Assembly (NCBI GenBank): GCA_051252005.1 | Contig: JBPOEZ010000003.1 | Span: 164,984 to 228,983 of the forward strand | Reading direction: 5' to 3' | Source: Alphaproteobacteria bacterium | GTDB lineage: Bacteria; Pseudomonadota; Alphaproteobacteria; Caulobacterales; Maricaulaceae | Length of the DNA: 64,000 nucleotides | Shown here: positions 3,305-34,612 of the stretch, piece after piece | Layout: each line of letters opens with the position of its first letter | How positions within the stretch are numbered: position 1 is the first letter of the stretch | The notes under the pieces: model-generated | The model's database searches: none | What the model saw: the letters and a program-made list of their open reading frames with translations, nothing else | Told to the model about the DNA's origin: nothing | Position numbers and translations under genes: made by a program

Positions 3305-4749
3305 CCTCCCTCTAGCTCCGCGAGACGTGCCGCCGTTTCGAGCTGGGCAATACGTGCCTGATCAACCAAAGTATCAATTGTCAACATATCGATCAATTGC
3401 TGGCTTGCGGTAACATCTGGCGGGTTTAAAGTGGCAAGCGCCTCGCGACGTGCGACCTCGTCTTGCAATGCCTTAAGTTCTGCAGCTGCTTCTACCTCGC
3501 GAGCGGCCTCTAGTGCTTGCACTTCCGTTTTAATCGCATCCACTGCTGATGTCAGGGCGGCAATTGGTGCGCCAACCTGTTTGTAGCCGGCTTTTGTCAA
3601 ATTGCCCTTTTTCGAAAACTCAATGGTATATTCAAGACTCTCGAATGGGGCAGCAGAAACGACTAATTTATCTATGTAGCCAAGCTGAGCAACCTTGGCG
3701 CGATGGACGTGAATTTCAGACATAGCTACGGATGCAGGATATGGAAATGGTTTTGATGGATCTTTAATTTTCTCAAAGACCAACCGTCCCGGTTGCGGGG
3801 TGCGATAGGAAATTCCTTTGGCATTGATTGTTTTTTTGTCATCGAGATTGTCAATGCCATTTGCGTTGCTATCGGCTTCAAGCTTTACAAAGACATACAT
3901 GCTCTGCTTTTGGGTCGTGGTTGGGCTATTGCCTGCCCACTTCTTCAGAGTTGCTTCGGGAAGAGCATAGGGGGTCTTGTTTTCCCGGTCAGAGCCTTTT
4001 AGCGGCCAGTAAATAGGTTTTGTAGTGTGAGATATTGGCTTTAGCAAATCGGCGACATGTGCAATTTGTGCTTGCACTGCTGCGTTTGCGTCCCTCACTT
4101 CTGTAAGCTTAGCTTTAATATTTGGATCAAGGGCTGGGTCACTGGTATCAACTATGCCTTTGAATCCAGCTACCAGTTTGTTTAATTCAGTTTTACGTTT
4201 ATTAAGCGCTGCTGTTCTTGTTTTAAGTTCAGCTAATCCTGCATTAGCATCAGCTACGGCTGCTGGAATGCCCGCAGCGACGTTACAAGCATAAACGGGT
4301 GTTAATCCGGTTCCGGCTGGTACCCCCAGCGCTGCGCCAGCTACTTTGATCGCAGTTAATAATGCTGGCCCCGCCTCATCTTTAACGCTGGCATTTACTG
4401 TTTTCAGTAAGCGCGTGTCTTCATAAAAAGTAACTTCGACACCTGCTGAATTAAACCATGTCGAAAGTGATTGCGGATCAATAACAAATCGCGCATCAGC
4501 ATCTTCAATAGACCTATCTTTAACCGCGAAAGATGTAACAATTTTCATTTCGGCAGCAATATTATTCGCTGGATCAGCCTTTATGCATTCTGCAACACGG
4601 CGCGTTATATTGAATTCGAATTGTGTTAGCGGCAAGACATGAACAAGTCCCGTTTGAGGACCGGCTTGGTATTCATAGGTGTTGAGTGTTGAGCTACATC
4701 CAATCAGAACAATTGTCGCTGGAATGCTAATTCGCTTAATTTGTTTCAT
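3301..4749 (-). CDS. Hypothetical lipoprotein with coiled-coil segments
   Basis: Signal plus lipobox VLIGCSS. Ala/Leu/Glu-rich heptad-like stretches in the middle and at the C-terminus. No family recognised. Confidence 0.6.
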   Translation of the reverse strand: MKQIKRISIPATIVLIGCSSTLNTYEYQAGPQTGLVHVLPLTQFEFNITRRVAECIKADPANNIAAEMKIVTSFAVKDRSIEDADARFVIDPQSLSTWFNSAGVEVTFYEDTRLLKTVNASVKDEAGPALLTAIKVAGAALGVPAGTGLTPVYACNVAAGIPAAVADANAGLAELKTRTAALNKRKTELNKLVAGFKGIVDTSDPALDPNIKAKLTEVRDANAAVQAQIAHVADLLKPISHTTKPIYWPLKGSDRENKTPYALPEATLKKWAGNSPTTTQKQSMYVFVKLEADSNANGIDNLDDKKTINAKGISYRTPQPGRLVFEKIKDPSKPFPYPASVAMSEIHVHRAKVAQLGYIDKLVVSAAPFESLEYTIEFSKKGNLTKAGYKQVGAPIAALTSAVDAIKTEVQALEAAREVEAAAELKALQDEVARREALATLNPPDVTASQQLIDMLTIDTLVDQARIAQLETAARLAELEGG

Positions 4750-4995: not shown

Positions 4996-5155
4996 GCTAA
5001 TGTCCGCTTTGAGGATCTTTTTCCGTTTTCAACATTCTCACACAATCCACTGGACTTTGTGCGCAAAGGAAGCGGTAGTGTGTTGCGGCCCAATGTGAGG
5101 GTCTTGTCTCGGTAGTAGCGGCCACGATGTGTGGGCGTCATTTACGGAGATTGAA
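4996..5155 (+). promoter_or_regulatory. Conserved 5' leader of recombinase module 1 (3' part only; the head is missing)
   Basis: Highly similar at the nucleotide level to 31684-31844. Contains hairpin candidates (GGCCCA..AGGGTC) and an RBS GGAGA before the ATG at 5156. Confidence 0.6.
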
Positions 5156-5404
5156 ATGGACATTCAAACACAAAAACCCGAAATTAAAGCACCGCGTACT
5201 GGAAGCAAACAAGCCAAGCTCGTTGTCATGCTCTCGCGCAAAAACGGCGTTACACTTGCGAAGGCCAGCGAGACTTTAGGATGGCTGCCGCATACCACCT
5301 CCGCAACCATGACAGGGCTGCGTGGGCGCGGCTATGAGATCACGCGGATTAAACGCGAGGGTAAAGATACGCTGTACGTCATCCATCCTGACGAGGCTGA
5401 GTAA
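5156..5404 (+). CDS. DUF3489-like small winged-helix protein
   Basis: Track ORF 5129..5404. I prefer the ATG at 5156 because it follows GGAGA and matches the start of the paralogue at 31845 (MDxQTQ..IKAPR.GSKQAKLV). HTH-like GVTLAKASETLGWLPHTTSA. Confidence 0.75.
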   Translation: MDIQTQKPEIKAPRTGSKQAKLVVMLSRKNGVTLAKASETLGWLPHTTSATMTGLRGRGYEITRIKREGKDTLYVIHPDEAE

Positions 5405-5904
5405 TGCGGCGGGCGAGCAAGATCGCATCAGAAGTCGCCGAGCTTGAAACACTGGACCGCGTTGCCCTCGCCGCGCAGTGGGAAGCTCTAATGAAACGTT
5501 CGCCGCCTAAGGCCTGTAGCCGTGTGTTTCTCCTCAGGGCTTTATCCTATGAACTGCAAAGTAAGCATGCTCCTGATCTCAGCAAGACGGACATGAGGGC
5601 ACTCAAAGCAAGCTTGGGCAAAGTACCAAGCAGTGCCGTTGAGAATGACAGGGAAGAGGATGCTGCGACCACAACACCTAACGCCAAGACCAAGCCGAGA
5701 CGCAAGGCCCCTGCCCGTCTGGCCCTTGTGCCGGGTGCCCGACTAGTGCGGGAATGGAACGGACAGGCCTATACGGTCTCGGTGATCAAAGAAGGTTTTG
5801 TCTATAAGGACAGAACTTGGAGCTCGCTGAGCGCTATCGCCAAGGATATCACGGGCGCACATTGGTCTGGGCCTCGCTTCTTTGGCTTGGATAAGGCAGC
5901 CTAA
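5404..5904 (+). CDS. DUF2924-like protein
   Basis: C-terminal WNGQAYTVSVIKEGFVYKDRTWSSLSAIAKDITGAHWSGPRFFGL. TAATG overlaps with both neighbouring genes. Confidence 0.75.
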   Translation: MRRASKIASEVAELETLDRVALAAQWEALMKRSPPKACSRVFLLRALSYELQSKHAPDLSKTDMRALKASLGKVPSSAVENDREEDAATTTPNAKTKPRRKAPARLALVPGARLVREWNGQAYTVSVIKEGFVYKDRTWSSLSAIAKDITGAHWSGPRFFGLDKAA

Positions 5905-7598
5905 TGTCTTCCCAGCGCAAACGCTGCGCTGTTTACACCCGCAAATCAAGTGAGGAAGGTTTGCAGCAAGACTTCAACTCTCTGGATGCGCAGGCCGAGA
6001 GTTGCTCAGCTTATATTCTGTCTCAAGCGGGTGAAGGCTGGTCCAAGGTCGATAAGGTCTATTCTGATGGCGGTATATCTGGAGGCCATATGGATAGGCC
6101 CGGTTTGATTGCCTTGATCGCGGATATCAAAGCGGGGCTGATTGATATCATCGTCGTTTACAAAGTTGACCGACTAACACGGTCACTGGCCGACTTTGCG
6201 CGGCTAGTAGATGTCTTTGATAAACATGACGTCTCGTTTGTGTCGATCACTCAAGCGTTCAATACAACGACCAGCATGGGACGGCTAACGCTGAATGTCC
6301 TGCTCTCCTTCGCCCAGTTCGAACGGGAAGTGACGGCGGAGCGTATCAGGGACAAGATCGCAGCCTCAAAGAAACGGGGGCAATGGATGGGCGGCCTTCC
6401 ACCTCTTGGATATGATAATATTAACAAGAAGCTGGTGGCAAATTCTGATGAAGCAAACACAGTCCAGCATATCATGACGCGGTATGTAGAGCTTAAGTCT
6501 GTCACAAAGCTCAAGCATGAACTTGACCTTGATGGTTATCTTACCAAAACCCGCATAACAAGGAAGCAGTCTCAGACAGGCGGCAAGCCCTTTAGCCGCG
6601 GCCACCTCTACAAGCTCCTTTGCAATCCCGTTTACATCGGCAAGACCACACATAAAGGCGTGGTCTTTGACGGACAGCATGATCCTATCGTTGATCAGGA
6701 ATTATGGAATTCGGTACAAGCAGGGCTCAAAGCAAATGCTCCTAAGCGAAGGCGTTCCATTAACATCGCATCGAATAGTCTTCTCACAGGGATGATCTTT
6801 GAAGATAGCGGAGACCGCCTTTCTCCCGTGCATTCTAGAAAGCCCAATGGAAGGCGTTACCGCTATTACATCTCGGCGCGATTATCAAAAGGCGAAATGG
6901 ATGACGGGACGGCCTTGAGGCTTCCGGCCAAACAGATTGAGGGTCAGGTGTTTAGGCGTCTGACAGACCTATTAAGCAATACAGGCCAATTGATGGGTAT
7001 GGTAGACGGCTCACACCTGACACCCCAACAGGTTTCAAAGGTAGAGCAGCATGCAAGCGAGCTAGCCGCGCGCCTCACATCAAACTGCGTTGAAACGCAG
7101 AGAACCCTACTGATTGATATCATTCAACGGATTACCATCTCGCCCAAGGACCTTATGTTGGAGCTTCGGAGGGACGCATTATTTCCAGATGGCATTTGCT
7201 CCCAAAAAGTCAAACTCGAAAACGACGCCATTACGCTCGCCTATCCGCTACAGATGAAGCGGCGCGGCATTGAGACTAAACTCATCATTGGCGGCGTGGC
7301 GTTAGGGCAGCCAGACCCCGAACTTATCAAACTTATTGCCAAGGCCAGAAACTGGTATGGTGGCCTTAAGACGGGACGCTTCAAATCTATCAAAGACATC
7401 GCAGCAATTGAAAAAATGGATGACGGTGATGTCAGCAGAACCTTATCCCTCGCCTTTCTTGCCCCCTCGATCATTCATGACATCATTGCTGGTAATCATG
7501 CTATAAATCTCACGCCAAGAGACTTAAGCCGCAAAGCTAATAGGCTTCCATTAGATTGGGCGCAGCAGCGCAGCTTTCTAGGCATGAAAGCTACCTAA
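5904..7598 (+). CDS. Large serine recombinase (resolvase/invertase N-domain plus recombinase domain)
   Basis: CAVYTRKSSEEGLQQDFNSLDAQ (catalytic Ser region), VVYKVDRLTRS, GHLYKLLCNPVYIGK. 564 aa. No CxxC pairs where a zinc ribbon would normally sit. Confidence 0.9.
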   Translation: MSSQRKRCAVYTRKSSEEGLQQDFNSLDAQAESCSAYILSQAGEGWSKVDKVYSDGGISGGHMDRPGLIALIADIKAGLIDIIVVYKVDRLTRSLADFARLVDVFDKHDVSFVSITQAFNTTTSMGRLTLNVLLSFAQFEREVTAERIRDKIAASKKRGQWMGGLPPLGYDNINKKLVANSDEANTVQHIMTRYVELKSVTKLKHELDLDGYLTKTRITRKQSQTGGKPFSRGHLYKLLCNPVYIGKTTHKGVVFDGQHDPIVDQELWNSVQAGLKANAPKRRRSINIASNSLLTGMIFEDSGDRLSPVHSRKPNGRRYRYYISARLSKGEMDDGTALRLPAKQIEGQVFRRLTDLLSNTGQLMGMVDGSHLTPQQVSKVEQHASELAARLTSNCVETQRTLLIDIIQRITISPKDLMLELRRDALFPDGICSQKVKLENDAITLAYPLQMKRRGIETKLIIGGVALGQPDPELIKLIAKARNWYGGLKTGRFKSIKDIAAIEKMDDGDVSRTLSLAFLAPSIIHDIIAGNHAINLTPRDLSRKANRLPLDWAQQRSFLGMKAT

Positions 7599-7633
7599 GC
7601 TAACAACTCCCCCAACACTTACATCATTGCAAC

Positions 7634-7831
7634 ATGCAGACTGCATCAGGCCGCAAACATCTTGGACGCTAAATTTGGGATCTGAGACGCTCTCGGAAAT
7701 AGGGCTAATTATCGGGCATTTTCCGTCTCATTTCGCGTCTCTACTCTGCATATATCCGGCTAAACCCCCGTTACTAGGGGACTTTCTCAGTCAGGACGTA
7801 TCGGCGGTGAAAAGCGCAGCGTGCGTGGTAG
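7634..7831 (+). repeat. Conserved non-coding arm downstream of recombinase 1 (copy 1 of 2)
   Basis: About 198 nt, near-colinear with 34344-34541. The similarity ends exactly after GTGCGTGGTAG. Contains GAGACG/CGTCTC hexamers and a CCCC..GGGG hairpin. Confidence 0.8.
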
Positions 7832-7839
7832 TGGACGCA
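7822..7839. other. attP-like junction between the two islands (TGCGT-N8-ACGCA dyad)
   Basis: The sequence tgcgtggtagtggacgca straddles the point (7831/7832) where homology with the tRNA-proximal arm stops. Confidence 0.5.
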
Positions 7840-7866
7840 GTCCGCAGATAGCCCGTCTCACGCCCA

Positions 7867-8058
7867 AATTCCCTGCTTTACAGGGAATTAACAGGGAATA
7901 TATTTGTTTTTCACCATAAATTCCGAATTCACCCCCTGCAAGCCACTGAAAACGCTATGAAATTTGGAGGTTTCCCTGCCTAAATTAACAGGGAATTTTA
8001 TTTTGCAAGCAGGGAAAGCTGATCGGGCGGCAGGGAATTACAAATTGGAAACAGGGTA
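7867..8058. repeat. Iteron-like cluster of CAGGGAA(T) motifs (8 copies)
   Basis: Copies at 7867-7875 (reverse complement), 7881-7889, 7892-7899, 7972-7978 (reverse complement), 7989-7997, 8010-8016, 8031-8038 and 8052-8058 (CAGGGTA). The first two form a perfect 9-bp inverted repeat AATTCCCTG/CAGGGAATT. Confidence 0.8.
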
Positions 8059-8064
8059 TATTAA

Positions 8065-20548: not shown

Positions 20549-21268
20549 GTGCCGAAAGATGACGAAGCGGAACTGCGATTAGCTCTCATCCGGCTTGCTA
20601 AAAAATATGGCCGTTATGGCTACCGCAAGATAGCTGCACTTCTGCAAATGGAAGGCTGGATGATCAACCACAAAAAGGCTGAACGGTTGTGGAGAGAGGA
20701 AGGCCTTCAGCTTCCCAAGCGGCATAAGAAGCGTAAACGGCTGTATCACAAAGACAGCTCGGTCATAAGGCTCAGACCTCAGTATAAGAACCACATTTGG
20801 AGCGTAGACTTCGTACATGACAAGCTCAGTTCTGGCCGCTCTTATAAGATGCTGACAGTGCTGGATGAATATACCCGTCAGGCATTATGTGTTGAAGTGA
20901 AGTCAAAGATGGGCTCGGCGGATGTATTGGAAGCTTTGTATCCTCTTCTGCTAAAACACGGAAAGCCGGAATACATCCGCTCAGATAATGGCTCTGAGTT
21001 TATCGCAACTGCGCTCCAGCTCTGGTTACGCAAGGTTGGGGTCAAGCCGATACAGATCTACCCTGGGTCACCTTGGGAAAATGGATATAATGAGCGCTTC
21101 AATGGAACTCTCCGCCATGAAGTCCTCAATGCAGAATGGTTCACCAGCATCAATCAGGCCCAAACAGTTATCAACATGTGGCTCAAAGAGTACAATCACA
21201 TAAGGCCGCATCAATCCCTAAACATGCGTCCGCCGGTCCCAGAGACTCTACATCAAAGTGGTACATAA
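20549..21268 (+). CDS. IS3-family transposase OrfB (DDE integrase core), probably made as an OrfAB fusion
   Basis: WSVDFVHD, SDNGSEF and ERFNGTLRHEV motifs. The frame is open upstream to 20414 without its own obvious start. Confidence 0.85.
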   Translation: MPKDDEAELRLALIRLAKKYGRYGYRKIAALLQMEGWMINHKKAERLWREEGLQLPKRHKKRKRLYHKDSSVIRLRPQYKNHIWSVDFVHDKLSSGRSYKMLTVLDEYTRQALCVEVKSKMGSADVLEALYPLLLKHGKPEYIRSDNGSEFIATALQLWLRKVGVKPIQIYPGSPWENGYNERFNGTLRHEVLNAEWFTSINQAQTVINMWLKEYNHIRPHQSLNMRPPVPETLHQSGT

Positions 21269-31642: not shown

Positions 31643-31844
31643 AACATTACCAGAGGCCGTGTTTGGGCGTTTTAAGACTCCGAGCTAAGGTCGTCTTAGA
31701 GGATCTTTTTCCGTTTTCCATTATCTTCCACAACCCACTGGACTTCCTTCGCAAAGGAAGCAGTAGTGTCTTGCGGCCCTGATGTGAGGGCCTTGTCTCA
31801 GTAGTAGCGGTCACATTGAGTGATCGCCAATCACGGAGACCAAA
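31643..31844 (+). promoter_or_regulatory. Complete conserved leader of recombinase module 2 (head = repeat copy E, 31643-31704)
   Basis: Begins with AACATTACCAGAGGCCGTGTTTGGGCG. Hairpins CTTCCTT-cgca-AAGGAAG and GGCCCT-gatgtg-AGGGCC. RBS GGAGA before the ATG at 31845. Confidence 0.65.
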
Positions 31845-32090
31845 ATGGACACTCAAACACAAACATTAGATATCAAAGCCCCGCGCGCAGGGAGCAAACA
31901 GGCAAAGCTTGTGGCCATGCTATCGCGTAAATCAGGGGTCACGCTTGCAAAGGCGAGTGAGGCATTGGAATGGCTTCCTCATACAACGTCAGCCGCCATG
32001 ACTGGCTTGCGTAAGCGCGGTTACGTCATCACCAGCATAAAACGGGAAACCAAAGACATGCTATATGTCATTCACCCGGATGAGGCATAG
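31845..32090 (+). CDS. DUF3489-like small winged-helix protein (paralogue of 5156..5404)
   Basis: MDTQTQTLDIKAPRAGSKQAKLVAMLSRKSGVTLAKASEALEWLPHTTSAAMTGLRKRGY. Confidence 0.8.
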   Translation: MDTQTQTLDIKAPRAGSKQAKLVAMLSRKSGVTLAKASEALEWLPHTTSAAMTGLRKRGYVITSIKRETKDMLYVIHPDEA

Positions 32091-32092
32091 CC

Positions 32093-32608
32093 GTGGCAAG
32101 CAGCCATAAAGTAGCGGCGGGCCTTCTTGAACTATCAGACATGGACCGCGCGGGATTAGCGGCTAAGTGGCAGGATATTATGCACCGCCCTGCCCCAAAG
32201 GCCGCCAGCCGTATATTTCTCCTTCGGGCCTTATCTTTTGAGCTTCAAAGCAAACATGCACCCGGTCTGGGCAAGGCAGACCTAAAGGCCCTGAGGGCAA
32301 GCTTTGGTAAAATCTCCAGTGTCGGGGCCGACAACATCAGGGAAGATGTAGGCGGCACTGCAGTGAGTGTAGATCAGCCCTTGGGACCTAAGGCTAAGCC
32401 AAAACGGAAGTCTTCGCCTCGCCTTAGCTTAGTCCCCGGCTCCCGCCTTGTGCGCGAATGGAACGGTCATGCCTATACGGTGGCCGTTATCAAAGAAGGC
32501 TTTGTCTATAAAGACAGGACATGGAGCTCGCTCTCTGCCATTGCCAAAGATATCACGGGCGCCCACTGGTCTGGCCCGCGCTTCTTTGGGCTGGATAGTG
32601 CCGCCTGA
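32093..32608 (+). CDS. DUF2924-like protein (paralogue of 5404..5904)
   Basis: GTG start. C-terminus WNGHAYTVAVIKEGFVYKDRTWSSLSAIAKDITGAHWSGPRFFGL. Confidence 0.75.
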   Translation: MASSHKVAAGLLELSDMDRAGLAAKWQDIMHRPAPKAASRIFLLRALSFELQSKHAPGLGKADLKALRASFGKISSVGADNIREDVGGTAVSVDQPLGPKAKPKRKSSPRLSLVPGSRLVREWNGHAYTVAVIKEGFVYKDRTWSSLSAIAKDITGAHWSGPRFFGLDSAA

Positions 32609-34302
32609 TGCCCTCGGGTCGTAAACGCTGCGCGGTCTATACGAGGAAGTCCACTGAGGAAGGACTGCAGCAGGACTTTAACTCTCTGGACGCGCAAGCT
32701 GAGAGCTGCTCGGCCTATATCCTGTCTCAAGCGGGGGAGGGCTGGAGCCATATAGGCAAAGTCTATTCAGACGGCGGTATATCGGGCGGTCATATGGAAC
32801 GGCCCGGTTTATTGGCCATGATTGCCGACATTGAATCGGGGTTAATTGATATTGTTGTTGTCTATAAGGTGGATAGGCTTACCCGGTCTCTGGCCGACTT
32901 TGCCAAGCTTGTAGATGTGTTTGATAAGCACCGTGTGTCCTTTGTCTCAATCACCCAAGCTTTTAATACCACCACCAGTATGGGACGGCTGACACTCAAT
33001 GTCCTGCTCTCCTTTGCCCAATTTGAACGCGAAGTCACAGCAGAGCGTATCAGGGATAAGATAGCCGCCTCTAAGAAGCGCGGACAGTGGATGGGAGGCT
33101 TGCCGCCCCTTGGGTATGATAATATTGATAAGAAGCTCGTGGTGAGTGCTGGTGAAGCCAGAACAGTAAAACATATCATGAAACGCTATGTGGATATGAA
33201 GTCCGTGAGCAAGCTTAAGACCGAACTGGATAGGGATGGCTATCTGACAAAGAGCAGAATGACCAAGAAAAAGTCACAAACGGGCGGCAGGCCCTTTAGT
33301 CGGGGGCATCTCTACAAGCTGCTTTGTAATCCCGTTTACATAGGCAAGATCACGCATAAGGGCGAAGTGTTTGACGGGCAGCATGAGCCCATTGTTGATC
33401 AAGAATTATGGGAGCAAGTTCAGGCGGGTCTGAAGCATAATGCACCCAAGCGCAGGCGATCCATCAACATCGCGTCCAATAGTCTTCTCACAGGTATGAT
33501 ATACGGCGAGGAAGGTGAGCGTCTTACGCCCATCCATTCTAAGAAGCCCAATGGCCGGAGATATCGCTACTATATCTCCGCAAGGTTATCCAAAGGTGAG
33601 ATGGATGATGGGACAGCTCTGCGGCTTCCGGCCAAACAGATAGAAGGCCATGTCATCAACCGGCTGACTGATCTGCTGGGCCATACAAGCCAAATGATGC
33701 AGATGGCTGGCAGCCAGCAGATAAAGCCGCATCAGGCCTCTAAGCTGGACGTGCATGCTAATGAGCTCTCACAGCGCATCACATCAGATAATATTGATAC
33801 CCAGAGAACCGTGCTGATTGATCTCATCTCCCAGATAACTATTAGCCCCAAAGACCTAACACTGGACCTACGAAGAGACGTCTTACTCCCCGAGTGCCTT
33901 AAATCCAGCAAACCCAAAAGCGGAGGCGACAACATCGCCTCCCTCAGCTACCCGCTGCAGATGAAACGGCGCGGGGTTGAGACCAAGCTTATTATTGGCG
34001 GCGTAGCCTTAGGCCACCCGGACCCCGAACTTATAAAGCTGATTGCCAAAGCTAGGGGTTGGTATGACGGGCTTAAGAGAGGACGATATGAATCCATCAA
34101 AGACATCGGGGTCGCCCATAAATTGGATAACGGCGATGTCAGCCGCACGCTGTCTCTCGCCTTCCTCGCTCCGTCAATCATTCATGATATCATTGCAGGA
34201 AAACATCCCGTTGATCTCACGCCAAGAGACATAAGCCGCAAAGCTTCACGGCTACCATTAGATTGGGCTCAGCAGCGCAAGTTTCTGGGCATGAAAGCCT
34301 AG
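32608..34302 (+). CDS. Large serine recombinase (paralogue of 5904..7598, same 564-aa length)
   Basis: CAVYTRKSTEEGLQQDFNSLDAQ. Highly similar to copy 1 over the N-terminal two thirds and more diverged around residues 350-450. Confidence 0.9.
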   Translation: MPSGRKRCAVYTRKSTEEGLQQDFNSLDAQAESCSAYILSQAGEGWSHIGKVYSDGGISGGHMERPGLLAMIADIESGLIDIVVVYKVDRLTRSLADFAKLVDVFDKHRVSFVSITQAFNTTTSMGRLTLNVLLSFAQFEREVTAERIRDKIAASKKRGQWMGGLPPLGYDNIDKKLVVSAGEARTVKHIMKRYVDMKSVSKLKTELDRDGYLTKSRMTKKKSQTGGRPFSRGHLYKLLCNPVYIGKITHKGEVFDGQHEPIVDQELWEQVQAGLKHNAPKRRRSINIASNSLLTGMIYGEEGERLTPIHSKKPNGRRYRYYISARLSKGEMDDGTALRLPAKQIEGHVINRLTDLLGHTSQMMQMAGSQQIKPHQASKLDVHANELSQRITSDNIDTQRTVLIDLISQITISPKDLTLDLRRDVLLPECLKSSKPKSGGDNIASLSYPLQMKRRGVETKLIIGGVALGHPDPELIKLIAKARGWYDGLKRGRYESIKDIGVAHKLDNGDVSRTLSLAFLAPSIIHDIIAGKHPVDLTPRDISRKASRLPLDWAQQRKFLGMKA

Positions 34303-34343
34303 CCAGCCCAACACCTCCCTCTAATCATTTACATCACGCCAGT

Positions 34344-34541
34344 ATGCAGACTACATCTGGCAGGAAACATGTTGGACGCGGAATTTGGGATCTGAGACGC
34401 GTCTCAAAATAGGCCCTATTATAGGCCAATTACCGTCTCTTATCGCGTCTCTACTTCGCTCATATCCGGCTAAACCCCCGTTACTACGGGGCTTTCTCAG
34501 GTAGTACGTATCGGTGGTGAAAAGCGCAGAGTGCGTGGTAG
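34344..34541 (+). repeat. Conserved non-coding arm downstream of recombinase 2 (copy 2 of 2), running into the tRNA 3' end
   Basis: Colinear with 7634-7831. The last bases, TGGTA, are the complement of the tRNA ..TACCA end. Confidence 0.8.
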
Positions 34542-34612
34542 GGGGAGAGGGACTTGAACCCCCGACCAGTCCGTTATGAGCGGACGGCTCTAACCAACTG
34601 AGCTATCCCCCC
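34536..34612 (-). tRNA. tRNA with anticodon CAT (elongator Met, or Ile2 if lysidine-modified)
   Basis: Hand-folded: GGGGGGA/TA/GCTC-AGTTGGTTA-GAGC/C/GTCCG-CTCATAA-CGGAC/TGGTC/GGGGG-TTCAAGT-CCCTC/TCCCCCT-A-CCA. 77 nt with an encoded CCA. A G1-U72 pair rules out the initiator type. Confidence 0.85.

What the first reader, a model, noticed from the sequence alone, without database searches (positions are those of the whole stretch)
5156..7598. Conserved three-gene recombination module with a Cys-less 'zinc ribbon' recombinase
In both copies the three genes are coupled by TAATG/TGATG overlaps. The order is a small winged-helix DUF3489 protein, a DUF2924 protein and a 564-aa serine recombinase. 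Large serine recombinases normally carry a four-Cys zinc ribbon after the recombinase domain. Here the equivalent segment (LLTGMIFEDSGDRLSPVHSRKPNGRRYRYYIS) has no cysteines in either paralogue. The roles of DUF3489 and DUF2924 (directionality factor, regulator or target selector) are unknown as far as I am aware. The paralogues look roughly 80 percent identical by eye, with divergence concentrated around residues 350-450. That region would be the coiled-coil or site-selectivity part in known enzymes.
Basis: partly seen in the sequence, partly recalled or inferred. Interest (0 to 1): 0.6.

Follow-up and report, generated by a model that had tools for sequence, protein, structure and literature searches.

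The report
tRNA-targeting serine integrase three-gene module
Two intact, anciently diverged copies of a three-gene cassette (a winged-helix protein, a DUF2924 protein and a large serine recombinase without its usual zinc-binding cysteines) each sit at the end of a genomic island at a tRNA gene; the cassette is widespread but unstudied, and it probably inserts and removes such islands.

Summary
Both trios are intact: 5156-7598 and 31845-34302. Pfam assigns them to DUF3489, DUF2924 and Resolvase+Recombinase. Protein identities between the copies are 81, 65 and 80 %. Divergence in the recombinase is concentrated at residues 361-450.

The segment after the recombinase domain is homologous to the zinc ribbon. 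It gives a full-length but sub-threshold Pfam match, and Cys-bearing relatives align residue for residue. All four zinc ligands are gone (to E/D300, G303, S324, about G335). The same is true of 114 homologues and of all readable loci of 29 drawn from other Alphaproteobacteria.

This clade also has a coiled-coil region about 68 residues shorter and an extra C-terminal domain of about 125 residues.

DUF2924 lies directly upstream of the recombinase in every locus with enough upstream DNA, across five phyla and in phages AcaML1 and WO. DUF3489 is alphaproteobacterial and present in about two thirds of loci.

The modules sit 170-660 nt from the 3' end of a tRNA gene. The shared core is only 5-6 bp. 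About 200-nt non-coding arms on both sides of the core carry fixed repeats.

My best reading is an island integrase that works with accessory DNA-binding proteins. Their exact roles are inferred, not shown.

This scan has noted the same trio before on other DNA (68 notes in at least 52 genomes).

The parts
4996..5155 (+). Conserved leader of module 1. It contains GTCTC ... hairpin ... GGAGAT immediately before the ATG.
   Evidence: 80 % identical to the copy-2 leader although synonymous sites are saturated. About 115 nt are conserved in all five modules of this genome. The predicted hairpin pairs with the Shine-Dalgarno sequence. No Rfam match.
5156..5404 (+). DUF3489 winged-helix protein, 82 aa (copy 1)
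   Evidence: PF11994 at 4e-15, with a weak HTH_39 match. GGAG lies 7-8 nt before ATG 5156.
5404..5904 (+). DUF2924 protein, 166 aa (copy 1). It has a helical N-domain, a disordered basic linker and a beta-rich C-domain.
   Evidence: PF11149 at 7e-38. AF2 model. TAATG overlaps at both ends of the gene.
5904..7598 (+). Large serine recombinase, 564 aa (copy 1). It has the catalytic domain (S15), the recombinase domain, a Cys-less beta-ribbon at 293-353, a short helical insert and an extra C-terminal helical domain at 472-558.
7599..7831 (+). Recombinase-side arm (P arm) of island 1. It carries GAGACG at 7684 and CGTCTC at 7724 and 7736, a terminator-like hairpin, and ends in the core TGGTAG at 7826-7831.
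   Evidence: 81 % identical to the copy-2 arm.
7832..8060 (+). Far-side arm (P' arm), the left end of island 2. It carries CAGTC, GTCTC at +25 from the core, and TTCCCTG/CAGGGAAT repeats.
   Evidence: Seven such arms in this genome align from the tRNA-derived core onward.
31684..31844 (+). Conserved leader of module 2
31845..32090 (+). DUF3489 protein, 81 aa (copy 2)
   Evidence: PF11994 at 1.5e-16.
32093..32608 (+). DUF2924 protein, 171 aa (copy 2, GTG start)
   Evidence: PF11149 at 5.5e-34. Junction sequences.
32608..34302 (+). Large serine recombinase, 564 aa (copy 2)
34303..34541 (+). Recombinase-side arm (P arm) of island 2. GAGACGCGTCTC begins at 34394, with further CGTCTC at 34434 and 34446. 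The arm ends in TGGTAG, which is the last 6 nt of the tRNA.
34536..34612 (-). tRNA-Met(CAT), the attachment target. Its 3' end faces the recombinase gene.
   Evidence: ARAGORN. The same geometry is seen at tRNA-Ala and tRNA-Pro in this genome and at many tRNAs elsewhere.

Best explanation
Each trio is the integration/excision module of a genomic island that inserts at the extreme 3' end of a tRNA gene.

The 564-aa enzyme is the catalytic large serine recombinase, with S15 as the nucleophile. It belongs to a large clade with three changes from the canonical enzyme. It keeps the zinc-ribbon fold position but has lost all four Cys ligands. Its coiled-coil region is about 68 residues shorter. It has gained a helical C-terminal domain of about 125 residues.

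DUF2924 is always encoded immediately upstream and usually overlaps the recombinase start. I read it as an obligate partner in recombination. I read its conserved beta-rich C-domain as a possible DNA-binding domain, tethered by a basic disordered linker to a helical domain.

DUF3489 is a winged-helix protein added in Alphaproteobacteria. It is most likely an autoregulator, a Cox/Xis-like arm-binding factor, or both.

I infer that the small proteins act on the unusually long conserved arms that flank the 5-6-bp core. One arm carries a GAGAC-N36-39-GTCTC dyad. The other carries GTCTC at +25 from the core and CAGGGAA repeats. Together these would form a complex attP of about 430 bp. That would be a serine-recombinase counterpart of the arm-dependent complexes used by tyrosine integrases.

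Shown here: the gene content, the domain make-up, the loss of the cysteines, the synteny, the adjacency to tRNA genes, the short core, the conservation of the arms, and purifying selection.

Inferred: catalytic activity, the binding of DUF2924 and DUF3489 to the arm repeats, and their roles in directionality.
For: Catalytic identity:
- Resolvase plus Recombinase domains are present.
- R13, S15, D89, R90 and R93 are invariant in 114 homologues.
- Residues 6-143 align to the TP901-1 catalytic domain.
- The AF2 model (pLDDT 84) matches full-length Bxb1, SprA, phiC31 and A118 integrase structures at E = 1e-11 to 1e-17.

Cys-less ribbon.

Short coiled-coil region and long tail. In phage AcaML1 the tail is a separate ORF.

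Partnership:
- DUF2924 lies directly upstream in about 30 loci from Alphaproteobacteria, Planctomycetota, Acidobacteriota, Myxococcota and Verrucomicrobiota.
- It is upstream in 27 of 27 evenly sampled alphaproteobacterial loci that have upstream DNA.
- It is also upstream of the recombinase in AcaML1 and in phage WO.
- DUF2924 and recombinase distances co-vary, r = 0.5-0.64.
- DUF3489 is present in 18 of those 27 loci.

Island function:
- This genome has five trios.
- In three of them a tRNA 3' end faces the recombinase stop codon 185-235 nt away.
- The same geometry holds in 16-17 of 29 sampled loci.
- The far ends of the islands start with the matching tRNA tail (TGGTAG, TGGTGG or GGTCG) followed by a conserved arm.
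- Six relatives have the same tRNA-Met with no trio within the fetched flank (10 kb in five, 2.7 kb in one).

Constraint:
- dN/dS is about 0.08 and synonymous sites are saturated.
- The leader and the arm are nevertheless 80-81 % identical.
- The dyad spacing of 41-44 bp recurs in 14 of 37 foreign loci and in three of the genome's own five arms. Chance expectation is about 0.001 per locus (my estimate).
Against: - No experiment or read data shows excision.
- No tool could model complexes.
- DUF2924 has no significant fold match in the PDB or the viral library.
- Its similarity to the RAMA domain is weak: hhalign probability 37 %, E = 3.6e-4.
- The mirror-tree test found no specific partner segment in the recombinase.
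- DUF2924 also accompanies canonical recombinases with four Cys and a long coiled coil. It therefore does not exist to compensate for the lost zinc site.
- The GAGAC dyad is missing from many family members. It occurs in two loci that lack DUF3489, so no motif can be assigned to a protein.
- Known large serine recombinases need no cofactor for integration.
Confidence: 0.72

Rival explanations
1. DUF2924 (or DUF3489) is simply the recombination directionality factor. It would be needed only for excision (attL x attR) and would bind the recombinase, as gp3, gp47 or SprB do. The recombinase alone would integrate at a simple att site.
For: Directionality factors of serine integrases are small, diverse and often encoded next to int. 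Between the two paralogues, the DUF2924 N-domain and recombinase residues 361-450 both diverge, while the DNA-binding parts stay similar. Winged-helix proteins such as Xis and Cox are classic directionality factors (general knowledge).
Against: Start/stop overlap places DUF2924 upstream of the recombinase in one operon. The recombinase would therefore rarely be made without it, and that would block integration if DUF2924 were a pure excision factor. The mirror-tree test gave no specific signal for the 355-450 segment (partial r = 0.10). The long conserved arms remain unexplained.
Confidence: 0.25
2. The two small proteins are only transcriptional regulators of the operon, acting as a repressor or autoregulator, and take no part in the recombination complex.
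For: DUF3489 is a winged-helix protein encoded first in the operon. The leader is highly conserved and carries GTCTC/GAGAC motifs around the ribosome-binding site.
Against: The DUF2924-recombinase adjacency survives across five phyla while the first gene and the leader change. That fits a physical partnership better than regulation. GTCTC-type motifs also sit at fixed positions in both att arms.
Confidence: 0.15
3. The modules are inactive relics, or the enzyme is a resolvase, invertase or transposase rather than an island integrase.
For: Activity was not observed. Some relatives carry broken copies, for example L003, L008 and L082.
Against: All six genes in the window are intact with dN/dS below 0.1. 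The placement at tRNA 3' ends is precise and the far-end arms match. Occupancy of the tRNA-Met site varies among relatives. A relative with the same module, phage AcaML1, is a temperate phage integrated at 'srrA' with 10-bp repeats (PMC3826726).
Confidence: 0.05

Closest known systems
Large serine integrases of phages and transposons (A118/LI Int, TP901-1, Bxb1, phiC31, SPbeta SprA)
   Same: The catalytic domain with its serine nucleophile, the recombinase domain, a beta-ribbon in the zinc-ribbon position, a helical insert and the C-terminal beta-hairpin are all present. Full-length fold matches reach E = 1e-11 to 1e-17.
   Different: The four Cys are absent. The canonical site is described in PMC3783163. 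The helical insert is about 68 residues shorter and there is an extra C-terminal domain of about 125 residues. A DUF2924 gene is always upstream. The conserved arms of about 200 nt contrast with simple att sites of about 50 bp. The targets are tRNA 3' ends.
Acidithiobacillus phage AcaML1 Gp5-Gp4-Gp3-Gp2 ('site specific recombinase large/small subunit')
   Same: The recombinase is 49 % identical over residues 5-367 and its ribbon is also Cys-less. Gp4 is a DUF2924 protein directly upstream. A small ORF precedes Gp4. AcaML1 is a real temperate phage, with attB listed as 'srrA' and 10-bp repeats (PMC3826726).
   Different: The C-terminal extension is a separate ORF (Gp2). The first small protein (Gp5, 63 aa) has no Pfam match and is not DUF3489. 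The module is only annotated, and I found no functional study of it.
Wolbachia phage WO gp30-gp31
   Same: A DUF2924 protein (gp30) overlaps a large serine recombinase (gp31). The recombinase is 34 % identical over its full length.
   Different: gp31 keeps a significant Zn_ribbon_recom match (44 bits). There is no DUF3489, and ankyrin genes lie upstream. I saw no evidence of a tRNA target.
Multi-protein serine recombinase systems: Anabaena XisF with XisH and XisI, SCCmec CcrA/CcrB, Dehalococcoides DsiB/DsiA at ssrA
   Same: In each, a large serine recombinase works with co-encoded helper proteins. The Dehalococcoides islands insert at a tRNA-like gene (PMC3146451). NCBIfam gives sub-threshold matches to the CcrB and XisF models.
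   Different: The helpers are unrelated proteins: XisH/XisI in one case and a second recombinase in the others. None of them is DUF2924 or DUF3489. All NCBIfam scores are far below the cut-offs.
Arm-dependent tyrosine integrase systems (lambda Int/Xis, P2 Int/Cox)
   Same: They target tRNA 3' ends and use a long attP with repeated arm sites. Small winged-helix factors double as regulators. This is an analogy of function only.
   Different: The catalytic family and chemistry are entirely different. The shared core here is 5-6 bp, not 15 bp or more.

Membership tests
Large serine recombinase (serine integrase) | N-terminal resolvase-type catalytic domain with a serine nucleophile and the Arg/Asp pocket | tested here: met
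   PF00239 at 5e-37. R13, S15, D89, R90 and R93 are invariant in 114 homologues. Residues 6-143 align to the TP901-1 catalytic domain.
Large serine recombinase (serine integrase) | Recombinase domain (PF07508) after helix E | tested here: met
   PF07508 at 3e-13 over residues 182-277. Aligns to Bxb1 up to residue 299.
Large serine recombinase (serine integrase) | Zinc ribbon domain with four Cys ligands | tested here: not met
   Pfam Zn_ribbon_recom scores only 15.7 bits against a cut-off of 25.3, although the whole profile aligns. None of the four ligand columns holds Cys: they are E300, G303, S324 and about G335. A beta-hairpin is still predicted there.
Large serine recombinase (serine integrase) | Long coiled-coil insert within the zinc ribbon domain | tested here: inconclusive
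   Helices are predicted at 342-406. The span from RYRYY to the C-terminal hairpin motif is 84 residues, against about 152 in Cys-bearing relatives.
Large serine recombinase (serine integrase) | Simple att sites of about 40-50 bp with a 2-bp crossover and no cofactor needed for integration | not testable with these tools
   The shared core is only 5-6 bp, which fits serine chemistry. The conserved arms of about 200 nt suggest extra sites.
Pfam DUF2924 (PF11149) | Match above the gathering score over the whole profile | tested here: met
   130 and 118 bits against a cut-off of 31.2, covering profile positions 2-134 of 135.
Pfam DUF3489 (PF11994) | Match above the gathering score | tested here: met
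   56 and 61 bits against a cut-off of 29.5.
RAMA DNA-binding domain (PF18755), proposed for the DUF2924 C-domain | Profile similarity to RAMA | tested here: inconclusive
   The Pfam RAMA model does not match the protein. It also did not pick up the five DUF2924 genes in this genome. hhalign against CcrM-type RAMA gives probability 37 % and E = 3.6e-4 over 60 columns. The claim of a partial match comes from PMC11342252.
Recombination directionality factor | Switches the integrase to attL x attR recombination | not testable with these tools
   No sequence family defines these factors. An assay is required.

The most novel reading that the evidence does not exclude
This clade of serine recombinases may have given up the self-contained logic of phage serine integrases (simple sites, zinc ribbon, long coiled coil). 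In its place it would use an arm-dependent, multi-protein complex. DUF2924, and DUF3489 in Alphaproteobacteria, would bind fixed repeats in an attP of about 430 bp. They would be required to aim the enzyme at tRNA 3' ends and to set the direction of the reaction. That would be a serine-recombinase analogue of the lambda-type complex.
Probability: 0.35. Interest if true: 0.8.

Novelty: new variant of a known kind. Interest (0 to 1): 0.62.

Why it matters
Serine integrases are prized genome-engineering tools because they are thought to need only short sites and no helpers. Their directionality is understood through the zinc ribbon and the coiled coil.

Here a very large natural clade is present in 68 of 301 sampled alphaproteobacterial genomes. 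It lacks the zinc ligands, has a truncated coiled-coil region, always travels with an uncharacterised partner, and carries long conserved arms. The DUF2924 family behind that partner has about 5,700 cluster representatives at 50 % identity.

The clade also inserts at tRNA genes. A 2015 reference database paper said serine integrases were not known to use that niche (PMC4383910).

Working out the roles of DUF2924 and DUF3489 would assign a function to two widespread DUFs. It could also reveal a new way of controlling serine recombination. These elements move metal-resistance and defence cargo in marine bacteria.

Tried and rejected
- **PDB sequence search.** A profile search with DUF2924 gave nothing below E = 0.9.
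- **Fold searches.** The DUF2924 model had no match below E = 0.1 in the PDB or BFVD libraries.
- **NCBIfam and PHROGs.** NCBIfam has no model for either small protein. PHROGs lists both only as 'unknown function'.
- **Rfam.** No match on the leader. With five sequences there is too little variation to test covariation. Only the first leader element is found outside the close relatives.
- **Mirror-tree test.** I tested whether the DUF2924 N-domain co-evolves specifically with the variable recombinase segment. It does not, with partial r = 0.10.
- **Empty-site synteny.** I tried to place island 1's left flank by synteny with relatives. The tRNA-Met neighbourhoods are rearranged and many contigs break at the tRNA. 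The left end was found through the conserved far-side arm instead.
- **Promoter scan.** No sigma-70-type promoter was found in the leader.
- **Sigma-54.** I read the CTGGAC...GC element as a possible sigma-54 promoter and rejected it by eye. The -12 GC is not conserved.
- **Compensation idea.** I rejected the idea that DUF2924 compensates for the lost zinc site, because Cys-bearing relatives and phage WO have it too.
Full report
**What is in the window.** Three tightly packed plus-strand genes occupy 5156-7598. They encode 82, 166 and 564 residues. A second set lies at 31845-34302.

Pfam assigns them to DUF3489, DUF2924 and Resolvase+Recombinase in both copies. Neither copy has a Zn_ribbon_recom match above threshold. 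In copy 1 both gene junctions are TAATG overlaps. In copy 2 the DUF2924/recombinase junction is TGATG. The DUF3489/DUF2924 junction there is TAG-cc-GTG, a 2-nt gap.

The DNA similarity runs from 4996 to 7834 and from 31684 to 34544, at 74 % identity. It therefore includes a leader of about 160 nt and a downstream arm of about 236 nt.

Protein identities are 81, 65 and 80 %. In the recombinase, 30-residue windows between 361 and 450 are 40-63 % identical, while the rest are 63-100 %.

Synonymous sites are saturated (pS 0.68-0.80) and dN/dS is about 0.08. The copies are therefore old, independently acquired relatives under purifying selection, not a recent duplication. The leader and arm are nevertheless 80 % and 81 % identical, and similarity drops to about 50 % just outside them. 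These non-coding parts are constrained.

**The recombinase.** Residues 6-143 align with the TP901-1 catalytic domain, and the chain aligns with Bxb1 integrase up to residue 299. R13, S15, D89, R90 and R93 are invariant in 114 full-length homologues.

An AlphaFold2 model (pLDDT 84) shows these elements in order:
- the catalytic domain;
- the recombinase domain;
- a beta-hairpin at 298-324 and a strand at 339-341;
- helices at 342-406;
- beta strands at 407-461;
- a six-helix C-terminal domain at 472-558.

The model matches full-length Bxb1, SPbeta SprA, phiC31 and A118 integrase structures at E = 1e-11 to 1e-17.

**The Cys-less ribbon.** Scanned alone, residues 293-564 align to the whole Zn_ribbon_recom profile (positions 1-57 of 58). 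The score is 15.7 bits against a cut-off of 25.3.

Relatives from Planctomycetota and Acidobacteriota also have DUF2924 upstream and keep the ligands. Their ...LLRCAPCDCAMVHS..KRYRYYVCTKAQKRGWYTCPSKSVPAGELE aligns with our ...MIFEDSGDRLSPVHS..RRYRYYISARLSKGEMDDGTALRLPAKQIE. The four cysteines correspond to E300 (Asp in the family consensus), G303, S324 and about G335.

No ligand column holds a conserved Cys in 114 homologues of 48-85 % identity. The same holds in every locus, of 29 drawn from evenly sampled Alphaproteobacteria, where the segment could be read. The surrounding residues L306, K313, Y321, Y322 and R339 are invariant.

The canonical site and its four Cys are described in PMC3783163, which also cites evidence that zinc is required for phiC31 integrase activity.

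The Cys-less clade differs in two further ways:
- The span from RYRYY to the conserved C-terminal hairpin motif is 84 residues, against about 152 in the Cys-bearing relatives.
- The tail after that motif is 152 residues, against about 28.

In phage AcaML1 the recombinase (Gp3) is also Cys-less. Its tail is a separate ORF, Gp2, annotated as the 'small subunit'. The tail matches a stand-alone phage protein family, phrog_14161.

**Synteny.** In 39 loci recovered from a species-level genome collection, DUF2924 lies immediately upstream of the recombinase in about 30. It was not detected in six: two lack upstream DNA, one has a deleted enzyme, and three are distant recombinases of 27-32 % identity. 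The hosts include Alphaproteobacteria, Planctomycetota, Acidobacteriota, Myxococcota and Verrucomicrobiota.

In an even sample of 301 alphaproteobacterial genomes, 68 (63 of 254 genera) have a homologue at E <= 1e-60, often in several copies. Among the 29 best loci:
- DUF2924 is upstream in 27 of the 27 that have upstream DNA.
- DUF3489 is present in 18 of those 27.

DUF3489 was not found upstream of the recombinase outside Alphaproteobacteria. Planctomycete loci carry a different small ORF with no Pfam match.

Phage AcaML1 (Gp4) and Wolbachia phage WO (gp30) also have DUF2924 directly before the recombinase.

DUF2924 has 5,668 cluster representatives at 50 % identity with E <= 1e-3.

This genome alone has five trios. 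Their recombinases are 46-80 % identical to the copy-1 enzyme.

**What the small proteins look like.** DUF3489 is a winged-helix protein, with a weak HTH_39 match.

The DUF2924 model has three parts:
- a four-helix N-domain at 2-72;
- a disordered linker rich in Lys, Arg and Pro at 73-105;
- a four-strand-plus-helix C-domain at 113-159.

The model has no significant match in the PDB by sequence or by fold, and none in a viral structure library.

One paper states that a RAMA DNA-binding domain partly matches DUF2924 (PMC11342252). A profile comparison with the CcrM-type RAMA domain from this genome and nine relatives gives probability 37 % and E = 3.6e-4 over the whole C-domain. That is suggestive only.

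Across 29 modules the DUF2924 C-domain is more conserved (mean distance 0.45) than the recombinase's own DNA-binding domains (0.57). The modules use different tRNAs, so the C-domain probably recognises something common to all of them.

**Context and att sites.** The copy-2 arm runs straight into the 3' end of tRNA-Met(CAT), at 34536-34612 on the minus strand.

Between the two trios lie copper and cation efflux genes, a P-type ATPase, a MerR regulator and an IS3-type transposase. To the left of copy 1 are a Schlafen-type helicase and a papain-like protease. To the right of the tRNA are core cox genes.

In the same genome the C12 and C13 modules face tRNA-Ala(GGC) and tRNA-Pro(TGG), 185-210 nt from the stop codon and in the same geometry. 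In other genomes the target is tRNA-Met, Leu, Ser (three anticodons), Val, Ala or Gln, always on the opposite strand and 170-660 nt downstream.

Searching the genome with the DNA just after the copy-1 arm found seven related far-end arms. Each begins with the complement of the matching tRNA tail: TGGTAG for Met, TGGTGG for Ala, GGTCG for Pro. Each then continues with TG..C.CAGTC, a GTCTC at +25, and TTCCCTG-N5-CAGGGAAT-TAA-CAGGGAAT.

This result sets the island boundaries:
- Island 2 spans window 7832-34541.
- Island 1 begins outside the window at contig C10:85064.
- The two islands are about 26.7 kb and 87.7 kb long and lie in tandem.

The sequence shared by the two ends of an island is only 5-6 bp. 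That fits serine-recombinase chemistry and not the 15 bp or more typical of tyrosine integrases.

Six relatives carry the same tRNA-Met with no trio within the fetched flank (10 kb in five, 2.7 kb in one). One relative has the trio there.

**The arms.** The recombinase-side arm carries GAGAC and GTCTC with a start-to-start spacing of 41-44 bp. This recurs in 14 of 37 foreign loci and in three of this genome's five arms, including a Vicinamibacterales genome. A second GTCTC often follows 12 nt later. The genome-wide density of the hexamers is 0.46 per kb, so I estimate the chance expectation at about 0.001 per locus.

The dyad occurs in two loci that lack DUF3489, so it cannot be assigned to that protein.

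The leader of about 115 nt is conserved in all five modules of this genome. It can fold so that GTCTC pairs with the GGAGAC that contains the Shine-Dalgarno sequence. It has no Rfam match.

**Interpretation.** The enzyme is an island integrase of the large serine recombinase kind. The constant DUF2924 partner, the operon coupling, the conserved arms with fixed repeats, and the remodelled C-terminal half point to a multi-component system. This differs from the self-sufficient phage paradigm.

DUF2924 could be an architectural or targeting cofactor, a directionality factor, or both. That cannot be decided here. Co-translation with the recombinase argues against a factor used only for excision.

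DUF3489 is best read as a lineage-specific winged-helix regulator or arm-binding factor, by analogy with P2 Cox.

**Prior knowledge.** I found only passing mentions of DUF2924 (three papers) and DUF3489 (one paper). The Islander paper stated that serine integrases were not known to target tRNA genes (PMC4383910). Serine-recombinase islands at ssrA are described in Dehalococcoides (PMC3146451). AcaML1 is listed with attB 'srrA' and 10-bp repeats (PMC3826726).

This scan has already noted the trio 68 times in at least 52 genomes. Follow-up reports there also reach the tRNA-targeting reading. I treated those notes as leads and re-derived the points above independently.

Noticed in passing
window 5040-5155 and 31728-31844; also own-genome contigs C12, C9 and C13 upstream of their trios: A leader of about 115 nt is more conserved than the proteins in all five modules. 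It contains ACTGGACTT..CAAAGGAAGCGGTAGTG and then a hairpin in which GTCTC pairs with the GGAGAC that holds the Shine-Dalgarno sequence. It has no Rfam match. Only the first element is found in distant Alphaproteobacteria.
   Followed up: partly
own genome, outside the window: C11:141272-141447 and C16:56294-56468: Two far-side arms with the tRNA-tail core and CAGGGAA repeats have no trio in the genome to go with them. They may be remnants, or islands that rely on a recombinase supplied in trans.
   Followed up: no
own genome C9:357035-357095 and C9:389630-389900: The left flank of the C9 island looks like another recombinase-side arm (CCCCGTTAGGAGGGG hairpin). Its own arm ends in an attP-type junction (GGTAGTGGCGGAGACGAAGTCCG) rather than a tRNA. 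This suggests further tandem or decayed elements.
   Followed up: no
L001 (Algimonas arctica NZ_BMZH01000023.1, a 23-kb contig), locus positions about 7900-8000: This trio ends in an attP-type junction with the same far-side arm as island 2 in the window. A near-identical trio on another contig (L002) abuts tRNA-Met. The 23-kb contig could be a tandem copy or a free circular form.
   Followed up: no
L059 (phage AcaML1 JX507079.1), locus 3850-4233: Gp2, annotated as 'site specific recombinase small subunit', corresponds to the C-terminal extension that is fused to the recombinase in the window. The extension therefore exists as a separate gene in a real phage.
   Followed up: partly
relatives G004, G008, G012, G014 and G015: Several assemblies have contigs that begin or end exactly at this tRNA-Met. 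This fits repeated island ends breaking the assembly at a hot spot.
   Followed up: no
protein P0126: A 977-aa protein matches the DUF2924 query in four stretches. The best-scoring stretch falls in the C-domain.
   Followed up: no
window 20549-21268: An IS3-family transposase (rve, rve_3, HTH_21) sits between the two metal-efflux blocks of island 2.
   Followed up: no
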